A stretch of DNA of 64,000 nucleotides, from NCBI RefSeq assembly GCF_009914755.1, contig NC_060939.1; one strand, 5' to 3'. Numbering within the stretch: the first letter of the stretch is position 1; each line of letters opens with the position of its first letter. Both the position numbers and the translations under genes were made by a program. The notes below the pieces were generated by a model. It saw only the letters and a list, made by a program, of their open reading frames with translations, had not been told where the DNA came from and did no database searches. Shown here piece by piece: positions 35,324 to 43,214 of this stretch. The DNA is from the human T2T-CHM13v2.0 reference genome, Homo sapiens.

Positions 35324-35893
35324 TGCTTGAAATGTTTGTTTTCTGGTGGTGTAAAGAAATAGCACTTGAATATAAATTTTTTTAGTAAGGCTATTTTTAT
35401 ATTTTTTGTAGAAAGGGTATACTTGCTCGCAGTTTTGTTATGAGAGTATATTGAATAAAGGAGATAAGGTTATTTATAACCTGACATGTCCACCTTATTG
35501 CTGTGTCCAGTTTTTATTGGGTGGAATGGGATTTTACATTTTGTATTTGTTTTGATTGGTTAGTAACTTTGAATTTTTTAAAAGAGGCAAACGCAGAGGA
35601 GAATAAAGGAAGGAATGTTGAGAAAGGTAAAAATACTTTTAAATAAGGAAGAGGAACAGGATGTGACTTACTGCTTTCTTGGACTAGTATAAGTATGCTA
35701 GGGCAAATATTTAGGCTAAATTGTGGGAGCTAAGAATATAAAGTATACTGATTTTTTTATTATGGCTAGCAGATATTTAAGAATCTTAGCACAGGTCTTT
35801 GAATAAATTTTGCTTCTAAGAGAAGTTACTATTTATTTTTAATTAGATGGGGAGGAAAGGCTTTGAAGAGAAAACTCTATTTTACTTTTTACA
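35324..35893 (-). mobile_element. 3' LTR (LTR10C-like)
   Basis: Direct repeat of 42625-43214, preceded on the minus strand by the PPT. Confidence 0.85.
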
Positions 35894-36098
35894 ATTCTCC
35901 CTCTTATAATTTTTTTTTAATTTGTCTGTTTTAATAGCTTTAAGAGAAGTAATTTTTCGAATAGGGTGGAGGAGAGTTAGGAGTTAACTTTGTAAGAGTG
36001 GTAGAGATAAGTTTTTGTATAAAATTTTGAAGGCAGGGAATAACATAATAGCTTATAAGTATATTAATAAGAGCGAACAAGGTGAGAATTGAAGTTAA

Positions 36099-36387
36099 TT
36101 TTTTTTTTTTTTTTTTTGAGGTGGAGTCTCACTCTGTCGCCCAGGCTGGAGTGCAGTGGCATGATCTCGGCTCACTGCAAGCTCCACCTCCCGGGTTCAC
36201 GCCATTCTCCTGCCTCAGCCTCCCTGGTAGCTGGGACTACAGGCGCCCGCCACCACGCCCGGCTAATTTTTTGTATTTTTAGTAGAGACGTGTTAGCCAG
36301 GATGGTCTTGATCTCCTGACCTCGTGATCCACCTGCCTCGGCCTCCCAAAGTGCTGGGATTACAGACGTGAGCCACCATGCCTGGCC
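36099..36387 (-). mobile_element. AluY nested in provirus env
   Basis: ctgcaagctcc, ttcacgccattctcc, gttagccaggatggtc; small internal deletion. Confidence 0.93.
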
Positions 36388-37793
36388 ACAATTTTTTTTT
36401 TTACTTATCGAATTAATGTTTTATTATTTTAGAAAAAGGGTTATTTATTTTAGAATTTTTGGCAAGTTTATTGGATAGTGCTGTTAATTTTTGTAGTGCT
36501 TTTGTTATAGTTTTGTTAGGGGCAGTATTAGGAATAAAGGTACAATATTGAGTTTTAATTATGACTTTTTTTTTTTGCTGATATTATATTTAAAGCTTTT
36601 TTTAAGGCAATTTGTCTGGTAGGTCCTAATTGCTTAGCTATTTTTTTGATGGCGTTTTCAGTGTAATTTATGAATTGTTGCTGATTGTAACAGATACAGT
36701 TTAGTTTACATTTTTTAAATTCATACTTACCAGAATAACGTGGACTTAAATTTTGCAGCTATTTGATTTTGTATTTTAAATTTATTTGAAATTTTTTTTA
36801 CAGGATTTTAATAGCATTTATATAAACTTGAGGATTAAAGGACTTACAAGGAATTTTTTTTGGCCTGCGGTGTTTTGTTTTTATTTTTTTAGATTGATGA
36901 AATGCTAGAGTGAAGGACAGCTAACTGGATTAGTACTGTTTCAAATATTTGGCACAGCGTTTAGTAAAGGTCCTTTACAGTACTACCATATATTTGCTTG
37001 GGGATGGCTAAGCATGGATTGATGGGCGAGCTTTTGGAAAAAGCATTTTTTAAATGCTTTTAAGGAATATTAAATTTTTTTCTTGCCATGAGAGGCACAG
37101 TGTAAGTTTGGCATTTAGAAAAGGTGCAAGCTGGATTGTCCTCAGGGGCTGACCCGCACAGTGTTAAATTTTAGGAAATAGCAGAGAGAGCTTGGCATGA
37201 TGGATTATTTTAAGCAGTGGGATTTTGAAAAAGAGCTACTATATAGTTTATATTTGGTTGATGAGGTGACCATTTAAGTGGAAAGGGGATAATTTGGGCC
37301 TCTGGAGTACCATGTGTACAAATGTAATAGTGTAATAATTGTTTTTAAAGTGTGAATGGAATATTTTAGCTAGGCATTTGTATTTTGATGTATTGTTTTG
37401 ATGGCTAAGGTCTGTCTTTAATTTTTTATTTTTATAATAGGCATTCTACTTTTATTAGATGCAGGAGTAACTGGTGTCGGATTTAGAACTTAGGCTACTG
37501 AAGAAGGGGAAGATGGGGGAATAATGTGTATTTTAAAAATATTTAGGGTTTTTAAAAATTTATGTCAAATTTCTATATTATAGAAGTGATTAAGGGTAGG
37601 TTTAGAGTTAGTTAAGGTGGAGGTGGTGACAGAAGGACAGGGTTATATTGAGAAGGTTGGGTAGGTTTTTTAATGAAATAGATGAAGGGTTTTAGATCTG
37701 TATGTTTTTTTTGTGTGTGTGTGGAAGTTTAACTTTGCTCTTGAGTAATTTAAAGGACGTCGTTCCATTTATTATAAGGTTGTTAGGCTGTAG

Positions 37794-38252
37794 TGTATCC
37801 GGAGTTGGTTCCTTCCAGTGGCTTTGTGGTCTCACTGACTTCAAGAATGAAGTCGCGTGTTACACCTCTTAAGTGTGGCACGGACCCAAAGAGTGAGCAG
37901 CAGCAAGATTTATTGTGGAGAGAGAAAGAACAAAGGTTCTAAACCATGGAACAGGACCCGAGCAGGTTGCTGCCGCTGCTGGCTGGGGGGCGGGGGTGGC
38001 AAGCTTTTATTCCCTTATTGGCCCCTCCCATGTTCCATTTCTGTCCTATCAGAATGTCCTTTTTTCAATCTTCCCTGTCACTGGCTACTTTTAGGATTCT
38101 GCTGATTGGTGCGTTTTACAGAGCACTGATTGGTGTGTTTTACAGTCCTAGCTACAGAGTGCTGATTGGTGCATTTTACAATCCTCTTGTAAGACAGAAA
38201 AGTTCTCCAAGTCCCCACTCAACCCAGGAAGTCCAGCTGGCTTCACCTCTCA
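37794..38252 (-). mobile_element. LTR12 (ERV9-family) solo LTR nested in provirus
   Basis: Minus strand TGAGAGGTGAAGCCAGCTGGACTTCC...GGATACA with tandem GCACCAATCAGC repeats. Perfect 4-bp TSD gtag. Confidence 0.88.
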
Positions 38253-38701
38253 GTAGGAGCAGAAAATTGGCGTTTTGGCTGCAGGTGATTATAACAATAA
38301 GTGTTAGGGGTAATTGTGTTAATTAGAGGGCCAGGACATAAATATTTGTGTGAAAAGGCTAGCTGTCATTGATTTTTTAATATTTTTACAAGGTATGATA
38401 GAGCAAGCATTAAAGGCAATGGTTTGAGGTGAGTTAGATTTAGTTACATTAATAACAAGGGAGCTATAACAGAATAAGGAAAGGAAAGGAAGTAATAGAG
38501 AAAGTATATGAAAATTAAGCTTTTTAAAATTTTAACTTAGTAGGGCTTGATTTTAGTATAGTAACCTAAGATGTTTTCTTGATTTGAGTATAGTGGGTCC
38601 TTTTTTTCTTGGCTGTGTGGACAGGGGTCTTAGTGGTTAACAGCATAAAATAGGGTCCTTCCCAGGCTGGCTTGAGTTTTTTATTTTTTGATAAGGATGT
38701 G

Positions 38702-40822: not shown

Positions 40823-42020
40823 ATATATATATGTATGTATATCTATATGTAACATACATATATATGTATATCTATATGTAACATACATATGTATATCTAT
40901 ATGTAACATACATATGTATATCTATATGTAACATACATATGTATATCTATATGTAACATACATATGTATATCTATATGTAACATACATATGTATATCTAT
41001 ATGTAACATACATATGTATATCTATATGTAACATACATATGTATATCTATATGTAACATACATATGTATATCTATATGTAACATACATATGTATATCTAT
41101 ATGTAACATACATATGTATATCTATATGTAACATATATGTATATCTATATGTAACATATATGTATATCTATATGTAACATATATGTATATCTATATGTAA
41201 CATACATGTATATCTATATGTAACATACATGTATATCTATATGTAACATACATGTATATCTATATGTAACATACATGTATATCTATATGTAACATACATG
41301 TATATCTATATCTATATGTAACACACATATGTATATCTATATGTAACACACATATGTATATCTATATGTAACACACATATGTATATCTATATGTAACACA
41401 CATATGTATATCTATATGTAACACACATATGTATATCTATATGTAACACACATATATATGTATATCTATATGTAACACACATATATATGTATATCTATAT
41501 GTAACACACATATATATGTATATCTATATGTAACACACATATATATGTATATCTATATGTAACACACATATATATGTATATCTATATGTAACACACATAT
41601 ATATGTATATCTATATGTAACACACACATATATGTATATCTATATGTAACACACACATATATGTATATCTATATGTAACACACACATATATGTATATCTA
41701 TATGTAACACACACATATATGTATATCTATATGTAACACACACATATATGTATATCTATATGTAACACACACATATATGTATATCTATATGTAACACACA
41801 CATATATGTATATCTATATGTAACACACACATATATGTATATCTATATGTAACACACACATATATGTATATCTATATGTAACACACACATATATGTATAT
41901 CTATATGTAACACACACATATATGTATATCTATATGTAACACACACATATATGTATATCTATATGTAACACACATATATATGTATATCTATATGTAACAT
42001 ACATATATATGTATATATAT
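40823..42020. repeat. AT-rich minisatellite/VNTR, unit ATGTATATCTATATGTAACA(T/C)AC(AT)n, ~24-30 bp, roughly 40 copies
   Basis: Directly visible tandem array organised in blocks of unit variants. Confidence 0.97.
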
Positions 42021-42602
42021 TTTACTATCGGAGGTTTGTGTGAGGTTCAACTCCTCCCCCATGGGGATTTCTCACCTCTTTTTGAGGTTTAACCCCCGAC
42101 AATGGGGATTTTTTACCTTGAGGCTTAACCCCCCCGCCCATGGGGATTTCTCACCTCTTTTTGAGGTTTAACCCCCACTCAGTGGGGATTTTTTTTACCT
42201 TTTTTTAACCTTTAAGACATCCTGGCTAAGAAATATTTTACCACCTCCCATGGCTTTTTGTGTCTAGTCCTAAGGAATGTTTTACTGCCCCTGCAGTTTC
42301 TCTCTCCTTGGTATGTTTTAACTAAGGAATGCTTTACTGCCCCGCAGCTTTTTCCTCAGTCTTGATTACTAAGGAAATACTTTACCGGTGTTTTTTCCTG
42401 GTGTTTTTTCCTCAATCTGTGCACAGTTTTCTGGTTCACGTGATATGTGAGGAATTGTTTTTTTTTTGCATTGCTGAGACTCTGAGTTTATTCCACATAC
42501 CGGGTGGGTTTTGAGCTCTTATCCTTGAGGCCACTGCAATGTGGCAGAGGAGCACGCTCCCTTATGAGGAGGGACTGGAGACCACCCCCGGCAGAGAATG
42601 TA

Positions 42603-42620
42603 TCCCCATACGGGTCACCA
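42603..42620 (-). other. Primer binding site, tRNA-Ile type
   Basis: TGGTGACCCGTATGGGGA versus the tRNA-Ile complement TGGTGGCCCGTACGGGGA (2 mismatches), 4 nt from the 5' LTR. Confidence 0.85.
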
Positions 42621-42624
42621 AAAT

Positions 42625-43214
42625 TGTTTGAAATGTTTGTTTCCTGGTGTCGTAAAGCAATATTACTTGAATATAAATTTAATTTTTTTTAGCGAGGCCA
42701 TTTTTTATTTTCTGTAGAAAGGGTGTACTTGCCAGCAGTTTTGTTATGAGAGTATATTGAATAAAGGAGACAGGGTCATTTATAACCTGACGTGTCCACC
42801 TTACTGATGTGTCTGGTTTTTATTGGCTGGAACGGGATTTTACATTTTGTATTTGTTTTGATTGGTTAGTAACTTAGAATTTTTTAAAAGAGGCAAATGC
42901 AGAGGAGAATAAAGGAAGGAGGAAGTAACTTGTGGAATGTTGAGAAAGGTAAAAATGCTTTTAAAGAAGGAAGAGGACCAGACTATGACTTAGTGCTTGC
43001 TTGGACTAGTATAAGTATGCAAGGCAAATATTTAGGTTAAATTGTGGGAGCTAAGAATATAAAGTATGTTGATTTTTTTATTATGGCTAGCAGATATTTA
43101 AGAATGTTAGCACAGGTCTTTGAATAAATTTTGCTTCTAAAAGAAGTTACTATTTATTTTTAACTAGATGGGGAGGAAAGTCTTTAAAGAAGAACCTCTA
43201 TTTTACTTTTTACA
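42625..43214 (-). mobile_element. 5' LTR (LTR10C-like)
   Basis: Minus strand TGTAAAAAGTAAAATAGAGGTT...CATTTCAAACA, 590 bp, followed by the PBS. Subfamily from recall. Confidence 0.85.

What the first reader, a model, noticed from the sequence alone, without database searches (positions are those of the whole stretch)
35324..43214. Fossil of APOBEC3-type restriction: a massively G-to-A hypermutated HERV-I provirus in an OTUD7A intron
Seen: the viral portions are extremely T-rich on the plus strand and nearly devoid of TC (no 'tc' in 36421-36600). The env remnant reads IKTQYCTFIPNTAPNKTITKALQKLTALSNKLAKNSKINNPF. Established knowledge (recalled): class-I env TM reads ..GTQCCTFIPNNTAPDGTITKALQGLTALSNELAENSGINDPF. 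Nearly every difference is a G-to-A codon change (GGA>AAA, GAC>AAC, GAA>AAA, TGT>TAT). The integrase tail ([14 protein letters not shown]) shows the same E>K pattern. The Alus and LTR12 nested inside keep normal TC/CG content, an internal control against a regional mutation bias. Inference: the minus-strand cDNA was deaminated during reverse transcription before germline integration, mainly in GA context (A3F/A3B/A3H-like rather than purely A3G GG). Hypermutated ERVs are known as a class; whether this locus has been described I cannot tell.
Basis: partly seen in the sequence, partly recalled or inferred. Interest (0 to 1): 0.85.

Follow-up and report, generated by a model that had tools for sequence, protein, structure and literature searches.

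The report
G-to-A hypermutated HERV-I-type provirus fossil
An ancient retrovirus copy sitting in an intron of the human OTUD7A gene had roughly a third to nearly half of its G bases turned into A before it entered the germ line, a clear but already well-known kind of scar left by the APOBEC3 antiviral enzymes.

Summary
Window 35324-43214 (minus strand) is a complete LTR-to-LTR class I provirus with a tRNA-Ile primer-binding site. It lies inside an Alu in an OTUD7A intron and was later interrupted by three Alus, a solo LTR and a minisatellite.

- **G-to-A excess.** Against 12 genomic paralogs, G>A makes up 38-52% of mismatches. At sites where the paralogs agree, 91 of 261 G are A, against 18 of 426 C>T.
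- **Context.** Editing runs GA > GT ~ GG > GC.
- **Timing.** The two LTRs carry the same edits (27 shared, 4 discordant of 59 sites), so the burst preceded integration.
- **Controls.** Nested Alus, the solo LTR and the flanking Alu show no such bias.
- **Gradient.** Editing rises from background next to the primer-binding site to about 70-77% just 5' of the polypurine tract. That is the single-stranded-exposure gradient described for APOBEC3-edited HIV.
- **Stop codons.** Twelve of 21 paralog Trp codons are stops in the locus.

The kind is well known from genome-wide surveys of edited ERVs, so this is a new, unusually heavy and clean member. It is not unique: other LTRs of the family are also edited. 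The "LTR10C" and "LTR12" labels and the ape and macaque orthologs could not be tested.

The parts
42625..43214 (-). 5' LTR (590 nt, TG...CA), G 9.7%
   Evidence: blastn and MAFFT against 15 paralog LTRs. About 91% identical to the 3' LTR. Ends read.
43215..43218 (-). Upstream copy of the probable 4-bp target-site duplication (GGCT), inside a host Alu
   Evidence: It matches the downstream GGTT at 3 of 4 bases. Flank 43396-43216 aligns to Alus.
42603..42620 (-). Primer-binding site TGGTGACCCGTATGGGGA, complementary to the 3' end of tRNA-Ile(AAT) apart from two changes
   Evidence: A 17-mer of the PBS of paralog L011 (up to 1 mismatch) hit 29 places. In 8 of the 12 loci scanned, the hit sits on the 3' end of a tRNA-Ile(AAT) gene.
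42021..42602 (-). Leader, with about 38-bp tandem repeats at 42061-42191. The first 100 nt after the PBS are essentially unedited.
   Evidence: G>A 16 of 140 = 0.11 in 42624-42525.
40834..42020 (.). Later minisatellite (period 29, 44.5 copies) grown inside the provirus. Not part of the edited viral sequence.
   Evidence: At the homologous site paralog L011 has only a short TA-rich motif.
39928..40833 (-). Internal viral segment A (no recognisable domain)
   Evidence: Aligned to 8 paralogs. G>A 0.44 pooled.
39636..39927 (-). Nested Alu (later insertion, control)
   Evidence: non-CpG G>A 0.097 against C>T 0.069.
39001..39635 (-). Internal viral segment B
   Evidence: Aligned to 9 paralogs. G>A 0.37 pooled.
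38702..39000 (-). Nested Alu (control)
   Evidence: G>A 0.049 against C>T 0.036.
38253..38701 (-). Integrase C-terminal remnant ([10 protein letters not shown]...)
   Evidence: The homologous reading of paralog L011 gives a weak MLVIN_C match (E 0.0015, below Pfam's cut-off). G>A 0.40.
37794..38252 (-). Nested solo LTR of another, common family (TG...CA, target duplication CTAC). Control.
   Evidence: At 367 sites where three copies agree there are 7 G>A and 3 C>T. G content is 24%.
36391..37793 (-). env remnant, including the transmembrane motif IKTQYCTFIPN...
   Evidence: G>A 0.51-0.58 pooled. 29-34 stops per frame.
36099..36390 (-). Nested Alu (control)
   Evidence: G>A 0.018 against C>T 0.049.
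35894..36098 (-). End of env and the polypurine tract (AAGAGGGAGAA at 35905-35895). The tract keeps its G, while the five G just upstream are all A.
35324..35893 (-). 3' LTR (570 nt), G 8.8%
35320..35323 (-). Downstream copy of the probable target-site duplication (GGTT), followed by the rest of the host Alu
   Evidence: Flank 35324-35248 aligns to Alus.

Best explanation
A defective, tRNA-Ile-primed, gammaretrovirus-like element was reverse-transcribed in a particle or cell that contained a single-strand DNA cytidine deaminase of the APOBEC3 type. The element consists of LTR, leader, integrase tail, env and LTR; no gag or RT is detectable. The enzyme deaminated C to U on the nascent minus-strand cDNA, mainly at 5'-TC, less at AC and CC, and least at GC. 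Copying into the plus strand fixed roughly one third to 45% of all plus-strand G as A, which is of the order of 250-300 sites (my estimate). The dead cDNA was then integrated by integrase into an Alu in what is now an OTUD7A intron in a germ-line cell. The roughly 9.5% LTR divergence puts this about 24-37 million years ago. It has since decayed at the ordinary neutral rate and collected three Alus, a solo LTR and a minisatellite.

Shown: the strand-specific, context-specific G>A excess, its restriction to viral DNA, its identity in both LTRs, and its gradient.

Inferred: the enzyme class, the single-round timing, the date and the germ-line route.
For: 1. Excess and polarity.
- G>A is 38-52% of mismatches to each of 12 paralogs.
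- At paralog-unanimous sites, 91 of 261 G are A against 18 of 426 C>T, p = 4e-27. Paralogs tested the same way give G>A shares of 0.10-0.32.
- Of 21 TGG codons in open stretches of paralogs, the locus reads 12 as stops (TAG 6, TAA 5, TGA 1) and 5 as TGG. These account for 12 of the locus's 23 stops in those columns.
- At 27 env sites with the close paralogs all G and the locus A, eight more distant copies read G 90 and A 62. At all-A control sites they read G 161 of 1547.

2. Context, non-CpG.
- GA 0.61-0.82, GG 0.37-0.68, GT 0.37-0.59, GC 0.18-0.27. The mirror class C>T is 0.03-0.12.
- In GG, the first G is A in 380 of 532 cases when the second G is also A, but only in 235 of 772 when it is kept.
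- GA preference is the published signature of A3D and A3F; A3G gives TGGG>TAGG (PMC4199767, passages).

3. The edits predate integration.
- Against each of 15 paralog LTRs, 36-50 G>A are shared by both LTRs of the locus. Only 1-3 are private to the 5' LTR and 3-9 to the 3' LTR. For C>T, 1-9 are shared.
- At 317 unanimous sites the shared changes are 11 G>A plus one site where the LTRs differ from the paralogs and from each other. Private changes are mixed: 2 of 18 and 3 of 11 are G>A.
- Concordance of the two LTRs at G-type sites is 27 both A, 1 and 3 discordant, 28 neither (OR 252). Against other edited copies the OR is 0.4-4.1.

4. Confined to viral DNA.
- Three nested Alus and the flanking Alu show G>A 0.018-0.097 against C>T 0.036-0.069.
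- The nested solo LTR shows 7 G>A against 3 C>T.

5. Gradient.
- Context-standardised editing rises from 0.24 of expectation next to the PBS to 1.5-1.8 next to the PPT (Spearman rho 0.54, p = 4e-4, 38 bins).
- The first 100 nt 3' of the PPT are the least edited part of both LTRs (0.30 and 0.34).
- This matches maxima just 5' of polypurine tracts, explained by the time the minus strand stays single-stranded (PMC1635257, abstract).

6. Real integration: TG...CA LTRs, PBS, PPT, and a 4-bp flanking repeat matching at 3 of 4 bases.
Against: - The family background is itself A-rich and G-poor (Vargiu 2016 notes A above 31% for HERVIP). Some of the A may therefore be older than this copy.
- Three of the eight distant outgroup copies also read A at many of the polarity sites. 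This weakens that particular test.
- LTR editing is not low overall (0.48 and 0.53). A simple HIV-type model would predict lower editing 3' of the PPT. Only the first 100 nt are low.
- The gradient is noisy: bins range from 0.47 to 1.82.
- The flanking repeat is imperfect, and the host Alu lacks about 29 nt at the site.
- The enzyme cannot be identified from sequence.
- Orthologs were not examined.
Confidence: 0.9

Rival explanations
1. The edits accumulated over two or more rounds of reverse transcription. The element is defective and was mobilised in trans, so stop codons did not stop it from being copied again. The load is then a sum of sub-lethal edits rather than one burst.
For: - Pfam finds no gag, protease or RT in the X-read frames of the locus or of paralog L011.
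- All six paralogs held with both LTRs have internal parts of only about 4.4-5.5 kb (coordinates). The family must therefore have moved in trans.
- Other LTRs of the family are edited to various degrees (0.23-0.64 of G-type sites).
- They share sites with the locus somewhat more than chance (OR up to 4.1).
Against: - No copy shares the locus's edit set. The best other LTR is 89% identical.
- Overlap with other edited copies is no greater than among those copies themselves (OR 0.4-7.9). That is what shared hot spots would give.
- A single smooth PBS-to-PPT gradient and unedited PBS-proximal DNA are simplest under one round, though they do not exclude several.
Confidence: 0.2
2. Reverse transcriptase misincorporation under an unbalanced dNTP pool (low dCTP) produced the G>A changes during minus-strand synthesis, without any deaminase.
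For: From established knowledge (recalled, not checked in a call), G>A hypermutation with a GpA preference was attributed to this before APOBEC3 was found. The GA preference seen here is compatible with it.
Against: - Misincorporation should not depend on how long the finished minus strand stays single-stranded. Yet editing rises from background at the PBS to its maximum 5' of the PPT, and is lowest just 3' of the PPT.
- The purine-rich PPT keeps its G next to a fully converted stretch.
- The ranking TC > AC ~ CC > GC on the minus strand fits deaminase preferences.
Confidence: 0.04
3. Nothing happened to this copy. It simply belongs to an A-rich subfamily, or the paralogs' common ancestor gained G (for example by ADAR A-to-I editing of viral RNA), so the polarity is reversed.
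For: - The family is A-rich (PMC4724089 passages).
- The copies form a star-like set in which the locus has a slightly longer branch even without purine columns: 0.157-0.199 against a paralog median of 0.145.
- Three distant copies are A-rich too.
Against: - In an editing-neutral sample of 40 family LTRs, the fraction of A at 65 G-type sites has a median of about 0.05 and a maximum of 0.27. The locus has 0.44 and 0.48.
- Changes shared by both LTRs are G>A only.
- 12 of 21 Trp codons are stops in the locus, so G is ancestral there.
- L054 reads G at 16 of 16 polarity sites, and four other distant copies read G at 52 of 78.
- A +1 A preference is not the ADAR neighbour preference (recalled).
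Confidence: 0.02
4. A regional, strand-biased mutational process acting on the chromosome after integration (transcription-associated or kataegis-like deamination in the OTUD7A intron) produced the bias.
For: The provirus lies on the transcribed gene's sense strand (annotation given with the finding).
Against: - Three nested Alus, a nested solo LTR and the flanking Alu are all on the same strand and all show no bias.
- The composition switches exactly at the LTR ends.
- The two LTRs, 7 kb apart, carry the same changes at the same positions.
Confidence: 0.01

Closest known systems
APOBEC3-edited ('ultra-edited') endogenous retroviruses of vertebrate genomes (Knisbacher & Levanon 2016, PMC4866542; Ito et al. 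2020, PMC6955324)
   Same: - Strand-specific clustered G>A on the viral plus strand.
- GA and/or GG context in primates.
- Edited copies integrated and fixed in the genome.
- The 2016 survey reports 44 ultra-edited elements in human and up to 234 editing sites in primates and rodents (section 8 read in full).
- The 2020 paper reports GG>AG or GA>AA preference in human ERV subfamilies and individual hypermutated copies (section 7).
   Different: - This copy is old, with about 13% background divergence among paralogs. That may put it outside a pipeline that needs a near-identical unedited parent.
- Its estimated load (about 250-300 sites, my estimate) is at or above the maximum quoted for primates.
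- Whether it is in their lists is unknown. The 2016 supplement could not be read. The 2020 supplements hold none of the terms HERVI, HERVIP10, LTR10 or hypermut, and their 7 chr15 hits lie in a table of APOBEC3 gene sequences: the two passages shown are marmoset and mouse A3 entries.
APOBEC3-hypermutated HIV-1 proviruses with replication-dynamics gradients (Suspene et al. 2006, PMC1635257)
   Same: Editing increases towards the polypurine tract and is lowest just 3' of it and next to the PBS. This is interpreted as reflecting the time the minus strand stays single-stranded (abstract; here).
   Different: - HIV has two gradients because of its central PPT. Here one PBS-to-PPT rise is seen.
- This is a germ-line fossil of a gamma-like element, not a lentivirus.
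- The gradient here is noisier, and the LTRs are heavily edited beyond their first 100 nt.
HERV-I / HERVIP group (HERVI/LTR10, HERVIP10F/LTR10F; Vargiu et al. 2016, PMC4724089)
   Same: - tRNA-Ile primer-binding site.
- Gamma-like integrase tail and env transmembrane motif.
- A-rich composition noted for HERVIP, with a suggested APOBEC influence.
- HERVIP LTR divergence of 10-19%, read as 30-40 My (passages). The locus has 9.5%.
   Different: - The copies studied here are short and lack recognisable gag, protease and RT.
- The Repbase/Dfam LTR subtype could not be tested.
- The paper treats A-richness at group level and does not describe this locus in the passages I saw.
- A search of its 4 held supplement files for my estimated hg19 coordinates found nothing. 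Those coordinates rest on recalled gene positions, so this says little.

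Membership tests
APOBEC3-type G-to-A hypermutated endogenous provirus | Excess of G>A over C>T and all other classes on the viral plus strand, against related unedited copies | tested here: met
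   91 of 261 G against 18 of 426 C at paralog-unanimous sites, p = 4e-27. Controls with each paralog as the test copy give G>A shares of 0.10-0.32.
APOBEC3-type G-to-A hypermutated endogenous provirus | Dinucleotide context typical of APOBEC3 (GA and/or GG favoured, C at +1 disfavoured), outside CpG | tested here: met
   GA 0.61-0.82, GT 0.37-0.59, GG 0.37-0.68 (0.30 when the second G is kept), GC 0.18-0.27.
APOBEC3-type G-to-A hypermutated endogenous provirus | Bias confined to reverse-transcribed viral DNA; flanks and later insertions unaffected | tested here: met
   4 Alus and 1 solo LTR show no G>A excess. Composition switches at the LTR ends.
APOBEC3-type G-to-A hypermutated endogenous provirus | Edits made before integration: the same sites in both LTRs | tested here: met
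   36-50 shared against 1-9 private G>A. Concordance 27/1/3/28, OR 252.
APOBEC3-type G-to-A hypermutated endogenous provirus | Editing scales with minus-strand single-strand exposure (PBS low, maximum 5' of PPT, low just 3' of PPT) | tested here: met
   0.11 at the PBS, 0.70-0.77 before the PPT, rho 0.54, p = 4e-4. The first 100 nt of U3 are lowest in both LTRs. The trend is noisy, and significant in the 3' LTR only (rho 0.94, p = 0.005, against rho 0.26, p = 0.62 in the 5' LTR).
APOBEC3-type G-to-A hypermutated endogenous provirus | Direct demonstration that an APOBEC3 protein produced the changes | not testable with these tools
   The event is about 24-37 My old. Only the footprint remains.
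APOBEC3G-type (GG>AG) hypermutation | GG is the preferred target dinucleotide (TGGG>TAGG) | tested here: not met
   GA exceeds GG with every one of the 12 paralogs. True GG>AG is 235 of 772 = 0.30, against GA about 0.7. Signature taken from PMC4199767 passages.
HERV-I / HERVIP (class I, tRNA-Ile primed) | Primer-binding site complementary to the 3' end of tRNA-Ile | tested here: met
   8 of 12 scanned loci with the paralog PBS 17-mer (up to 1 mismatch) are tRNA-Ile(AAT) genes, hit at their 3' end. The locus PBS differs from that at two positions.
HERV-I / HERVIP (class I, tRNA-Ile primed) | LTR of the LTR10 type and internal part matching HERVI or HERVIP10 in Repbase/Dfam | not testable with these tools
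No Dfam or Repbase library is held.
HERV-I / HERVIP (class I, tRNA-Ile primed) | Gamma-like pol and env recognisable by profile | tested here: inconclusive
   Pfam gave 0 families in three X-read frames of the locus. In 9 X-read frames of three paralogs the only hit was a sub-threshold MLVIN_C match (E 0.0015, 18.6 bits against a cut-off of 29.2). The env CC motif is visible by eye in paralog readings.
HERV-I / HERVIP (class I, tRNA-Ile primed) | 4-bp target-site duplication | tested here: inconclusive
   GGCT against GGTT, 3 of 4. The host Alu also lacks about 29 nt at the site.

The most novel reading that the evidence does not exclude
This locus may be one of the most heavily edited proviruses in the human genome. 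My estimate of about 250-300 deaminations in 5.4 kb is at or above the 234-site maximum quoted for primates in the 2016 survey. It may also be a roughly 25-35-million-year-old recording of reverse-transcription dynamics. It shows a single PBS-to-PPT gradient, an unedited PBS-proximal 100 nt, a protected PPT and a U3-to-U5 rise. That would show that this extinct gamma-like virus used one plus-strand origin. It would also show that TC-preferring APOBEC3 enzymes (A3D/F/H-like, not A3G-like) were packaged with trans-mobilised defective genomes in catarrhine ancestors. With the other edited LTRs of the family (L063, L065, L062 and others), it would make this family a usable natural series for inferring the site preference of ancestral APOBEC3 proteins.
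Probability: 0.3. Interest if true: 0.45.

Novelty: new member of a known kind. Interest (0 to 1): 0.3.

Why it matters
It is a clean, internally controlled example of innate antiviral editing caught in the germ line. One event is datable by LTR divergence. The pre-integration signal (shared by both LTRs) is cleanly separated from about 25-35 My of ordinary decay (private to one LTR). Five later insertions on the same strand serve as negative controls.

It can serve three purposes:
- as a teaching case;
- as a calibration locus for hypermutation detectors on old, diverged ERVs, which parent-based pipelines may miss;
- as a data point that TC-preferring APOBEC3 activity hit Ile-primed gamma-like elements in catarrhine ancestors.

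It does not reveal a new mechanism. I see no sign that it affects OTUD7A.

Tried and rejected
- **Pfam on the locus.** Three X-read frames of the locus gave 0 families, so the domain map had to come from paralogs.
- **Pfam on paralogs.** Nine X-read frames gave only a sub-threshold MLVIN_C match. The family could not be named from protein domains.
- **Unanimity across up to 12 paralogs.** This leaves few G sites for context analysis (GG 2 of 5). It was replaced by per-paralog and triplet counts.
- **Triplet 'paralog-lineage' counts.** They show a spurious A>G excess (31%), caused by homoplasy with the locus's edits. They were not used as a control. Paralog-as-test-copy counts were used instead.
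- **Distant env copies as outgroups.** They were only partly useful, because three of the eight are themselves A-rich.
- **Searching the genome with the edited LTR.** This returned a sample biased towards other edited LTRs. It was replaced by a G/A-neutral degenerate motif and a sample of the first 40 of its 369 matches.
- **Per-copy lists of edited human ERVs.** The 2016 supplement was unreadable. The 2020 supplements hold no ERV-family terms. Anwar 2013 (PMC3700199) is not held. Vargiu 2016 supplements gave 0 hits for coordinates I could only estimate from memory.
- **Literature searches.** Terms used were APOBEC3 + hypermutation + endogenous retroviruses + G-to-A + HERV (31 papers), HERVIP10 / HERV-I / LTR10 / provirus, OTUD7A / endogenous retrovirus / hypermutat and HERVIP / APOBEC / G-to-A. 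None of the listed titles or abstracts describes this locus. That is not proof that it is not in print.
- **Earlier findings of this scan.** These were not open.

Full report
**What is there**

The window is human T2T chr15:29,264,001-29,328,000. On its minus strand, window 43214 to 35324 is a complete LTR-to-LTR retroviral element.

blastn against 12 genomic relatives fetched from the same assembly, plus direct reading of the ends, gives this map:

| Feature | Window coordinates | Note |
|---|---|---|
| 5' LTR | 43214-42625 | TG...CA, 590 nt |
| Spacer | 42624-42621 | 4 nt |
| Primer-binding site | 42620-42603 | |
| Leader | to about 42021 | about 38-bp tandem repeats |
| Viral internal segment A | 40833-39928 | |
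| Viral internal segment B | 39635-39001 | |
| Viral internal segment C | 38701-38253 | integrase tail |
| env | 37793-36391 | |
| env end with polypurine tract | 36098-35894 | |
| 3' LTR | 35893-35324 | 570 nt |

Between these parts lie later insertions:
- a 1.19-kb minisatellite (40834-42020, period 29, 44.5 copies);
- three Alus (39927-39636, 39000-38702, 36390-36099);
- a 459-bp solo LTR of another common family (38252-37794), with its own target duplication CTAC.

Both flanks are halves of one Alu. The four flanking bases are GGCT and GGTT, matching at 3 of 4. That Alu also lacks about 29 nt between two GGGAGGCNGAGG repeats at the site. By the annotation supplied with the finding, the element lies in the OTUD7A intron between exons 34041-34168 and 56584-56696, on the gene's own strand.

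**Family**

The primer-binding site reads TGGTGACCCGTATGGGGA. A 17-mer from the primer-binding site of paralog L011, with up to one mismatch, hit 29 places in the genome. I scanned 12 of them with ARAGORN. Eight hold a tRNA-Ile(AAT) gene whose 3' end is the match. In the classical naming this is therefore an Ile-primed, HERV-I-type element.

The copies are short. The six paralogs held with both LTRs have internal parts of about 4.4-5.5 kb (coordinates). Pfam finds nothing in the three stop-as-X frames of the locus. In nine such frames of three paralogs it finds only a sub-threshold MLV integrase C-terminal match (E 0.0015).

I infer a defective family that was mobilised in trans. The Repbase/Dfam names (LTR10C, LTR12) could not be tested.

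- The + strand of the viral parts has GC 0.27-0.33 with GC skew up to +0.72. The Alus inside return to GC about 0.5 and skew about 0.
- There is no TC in 36421-36600, and all eight of the longest TC-free runs of the window are in viral parts.
- The 5363 nt of viral DNA have 12.6% G and 39.5% A on the sense strand. The rest of the window has 24.4% G.

**Is G>A really in excess, and on this copy's branch?**

I built no consensus. I aligned each viral segment with the paralogs and counted in five ways.

1. *Pairwise.* G>A is 147-291 per paralog, 38-52% of all mismatches. C>T is 37-67.
2. *Agreed sites.* At 2180 sites where at least four paralogs all agree, the locus differs at 217. Of these, 91 are G>A (35% of 261 G) and 18 are C>T (4.2% of 426 C); Fisher p = 4e-27. 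Each paralog put through the same test has a G>A share of 0.10-0.32.
3. *Branch length without purine columns.* The locus is only slightly further from the paralogs (0.157-0.199) than they are from each other (median 0.145). It is an ordinary member with one extra class of change.
4. *Codons.* Of 21 TGG codons lying in open stretches of some paralog, the locus reads 12 as stops and 5 as TGG. These make up 12 of its 23 stops in those columns. Codons that differ only by G>A give E>K 16, D>N 15, V>I 13, G>K 12 and W>stop 12.
5. *Distant copies.* At 27 env sites where the close paralogs are all G and the locus is A, eight more distant copies read G 90 and A 62. At all-A control sites they read G 161 of 1547. 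One of them (L054) reads G at 16 of 16. Three (L055, L056, L059) are themselves A-rich, which blunts this test.

The family background is A-rich: A 28-36% and G 15-21% over the same columns. Vargiu et al. note this for HERVIP (passages). The locus goes well beyond it.

**Context**

Outside CpG, and with the context read in the paralog, the fraction of G read as A is:

| Context | Fraction |
|---|---|
| GA | 0.61-0.82 |
| GG | 0.37-0.68 |
| GT | 0.37-0.59 |
| GC | 0.18-0.27 |

This holds across the 12 paralogs. The mirror class C>T runs at 0.03-0.12.

In GG, the first G is A in 380 of 532 cases when the second G is also A, but only in 235 of 772 when the second is kept. Much of the apparent GG editing is therefore GA editing after the neighbour was converted, although regional clustering could contribute. 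The order is GA > GT > GG > GC, with C at +1 or +2 disfavoured (GCC 0.07, GCT 0.11).

Published signatures are GA for A3D, GAA for A3F and TGGG for A3G (PMC4199767, passages). Naming one enzyme in a roughly 30-My-old ancestor is not justified.

**Timing: before integration**

The two LTRs of a provirus are copied from one template during reverse transcription, so pre-integration changes must be shared and later ones private.

- Against each of 15 paralog LTRs, 36-50 G>A are shared by both LTRs. Only 1-3 are private to the 5' LTR and 3-9 to the 3' LTR. For C>T the figures are 1-9 shared, 3-8 and 2-5 private.
- At 317 sites where at least six paralog LTRs agree, the shared changes are 11 G>A and one other. 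Private changes are an ordinary mixture: 18 in the 5' LTR, of which 2 are G>A, and 11 in the 3' LTR, of which 3 are G>A.
- At 65 G-type sites the two LTRs agree almost perfectly: 27 both A, 1 and 3 discordant, 28 neither (OR 252).

LTR divergence is 9.5%. With the rough rule quoted by Vargiu et al. (per cent x 2.5) that is about 24 My. With slower rates that I recall from the HERV literature it is up to about 37 My. Paralog LTR pairs are 2.4-7.3% apart.

**Controls on the same strand**

- Three nested Alus and the flanking Alu, compared with 22 other Alus, show non-CpG G>A of 0.018-0.097 against C>T of 0.036-0.069.
- The nested solo LTR, compared with three copies, shows 7 G>A and 3 C>T at 367 agreed sites, and has 24% G.

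A regional or transcription-linked bias is therefore excluded.

**Gradient**

In 100-nt bins:
- G>A is 16 of 140 (0.11, the same as background) in the first 100 nt after the primer-binding site.
- It is 0.3-0.4 in the rest of the leader and mostly 0.3-0.7 in the middle.
- It is 0.5-0.84 in env, and 0.70-0.77 in the last bins before the polypurine tract.
- The tract itself (AAGAGGGAGAA) keeps its G, while the five G just upstream are all A.

After standardising for context, observed over expected rises from 0.24 to 1.5-1.8 (Spearman rho 0.54, p = 4e-4, 38 bins).

Within both LTRs, the first 100 nt after the tract are the least edited (0.30 and 0.34) and the U5 end the most (0.63 and 0.71). The trend is significant in the 3' LTR only.

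[quoted passage not shown] Here there is one gradient rather than two. It argues for deamination of exposed cDNA and against polymerase misincorporation. It is noisy, and the LTRs are more heavily edited than a simple model predicts.

**How exceptional is it?**

A genome search with the edited 5' LTR returned no near-identical copy. The best was 89%, with 40 of 426 candidates scored. Several of the best hits are themselves G-poor; L063 has 5.1% G.

To avoid that bias I searched with a 32-nt LTR motif in which the G/A positions were written R. It gave 369 matches and 0 for the reversed control. I fetched the first 40 listed, on chromosomes 1-6.

At 65 G-type sites the fraction of A is as follows:

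| Copy or sample | Fraction of A |
|---|---|
| Neutral sample of 40, median | about 0.05 |
| Neutral sample, the only 2 of 40 at or above 0.23 | 0.23 and 0.27 |
| This locus | 0.44 and 0.48 |
| L063 (from the biased search) | 0.64 |
| L065 | 0.42 |
| L062 | 0.31 |
| L066 | 0.28 |
| L067 | 0.25 |

Their edited sites overlap those of the locus only as much as they overlap each other (OR 0.4-7.9). That is what common hot spots would give. They look like separate events.

The locus is therefore an extreme but not unique member of a family that was repeatedly edited. My estimate of the load comes from 35-45% of about 800 ancestral G in the alignable 4.5 kb, with the LTR counted once. That gives about 250-300 sites. 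It is an estimate, not a count.

**Comparison with what is known, and novelty**

Edited ERVs are an established class.
- Knisbacher and Levanon report 44 ultra-edited elements in human and up to 234 sites in primates and rodents (section 8 read in full).
- Ito et al. report strand-biased G>A in human ERVs, with GG or GA context, and individual hypermutated copies (section 7).
- Vargiu et al. note the A-richness of HERVIP and suggest APOBEC as a cause (passages).

I could not see any per-copy list. Four literature searches turned up no description of this locus among the listed papers. It may or may not be in print.

I file it as a new member of a known kind. It is of modest interest, valuable mainly as a very clean, internally controlled case.

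**Open**

- Orthologs in other primates.
- The Dfam family names.
- One round of editing or several.
- Which APOBEC3 protein was responsible.

Noticed in passing
window 40834-42020: A 1.19-kb minisatellite (period 29, 44.5 copies, 95% matches) sits inside the provirus. At the homologous place, paralog L011 has only a short TA-rich motif (...ATTATATATACGTATATATTC...). The array therefore seems to have grown in place from viral sequence. It is probably length-polymorphic.
   Followed up: partly
window 37794-38252: This is a complete 459-bp solo LTR (TG...CA, target duplication CTAC) of a very common family. There were 2554 first-look candidates, and the copies scored are 76-83% identical. It is inserted in the provirus in the same orientation and is not hypermutated.
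   Followed up: partly
L063 (G000:C16:21181304-21181887); also L065, L062, L066, L067, L088, L070: Other LTRs of the same family are G-to-A edited. L063 is edited more heavily than the locus (39 of 61 G-type sites are A; G 5.1%). L065 has 27 of 65, L062 20 of 65, L066 18 of 65 and L067 16 of 65. In an editing-neutral sample, 2 of 40 copies reach 0.23-0.27. Site overlap with the locus is at hot-spot level only. Whether these are solo LTRs or parts of proviruses was not looked at.
   Followed up: partly
L055 (G000:C17:47926958-47928162), L056 (G000:C20:62973582-62974661), L059 (G000:C19:20036109-20037379): These more distant env copies (65-70% identical to the locus) read A at 0.39-0.52 of sites where the close paralogs all have G. 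They read T at 0.19-0.21 of all-C sites. They may be further edited copies of a related family, or an A-rich subfamily.
   Followed up: no
window 43215-43396 and 35248-35323: The provirus sits inside an Alu. At the insertion point the two halves lack about 29 nt that lie between two GGGAGGCNGAGG repeats in other Alus. This could be an earlier slippage deletion in that Alu or a loss at integration.
   Followed up: partly
L009-L020 (12 paralog loci): Every copy of the family held with both LTRs is short: 4.4-5.5 kb between the LTRs, in 6 of 6. They share the layout leader, 38-bp repeats, unassigned roughly 2 kb, integrase tail, env. No gag, protease or RT is detectable in L011, the one paralog whose leader-to-integrase part was scanned with Pfam. 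This points to a defective lineage that multiplied in trans.
   Followed up: partly
window 35419-36086, 36464-38650, 42031-43192: In the list of masked repeats supplied with the finding, the Alus and the minisatellite are masked but the hypermutated viral stretches are not. Heavy editing may hide such copies from routine masking. This rests on the hub's list only and was not tested.
   Followed up: no
window 42625-43214 versus 35324-35893: At agreed sites the 5' LTR carries more private changes than the 3' LTR (18 against 11). It is also further from other family LTRs (median non-purine distance 0.129 against 0.105). This is not significant on these numbers.
   Followed up: no
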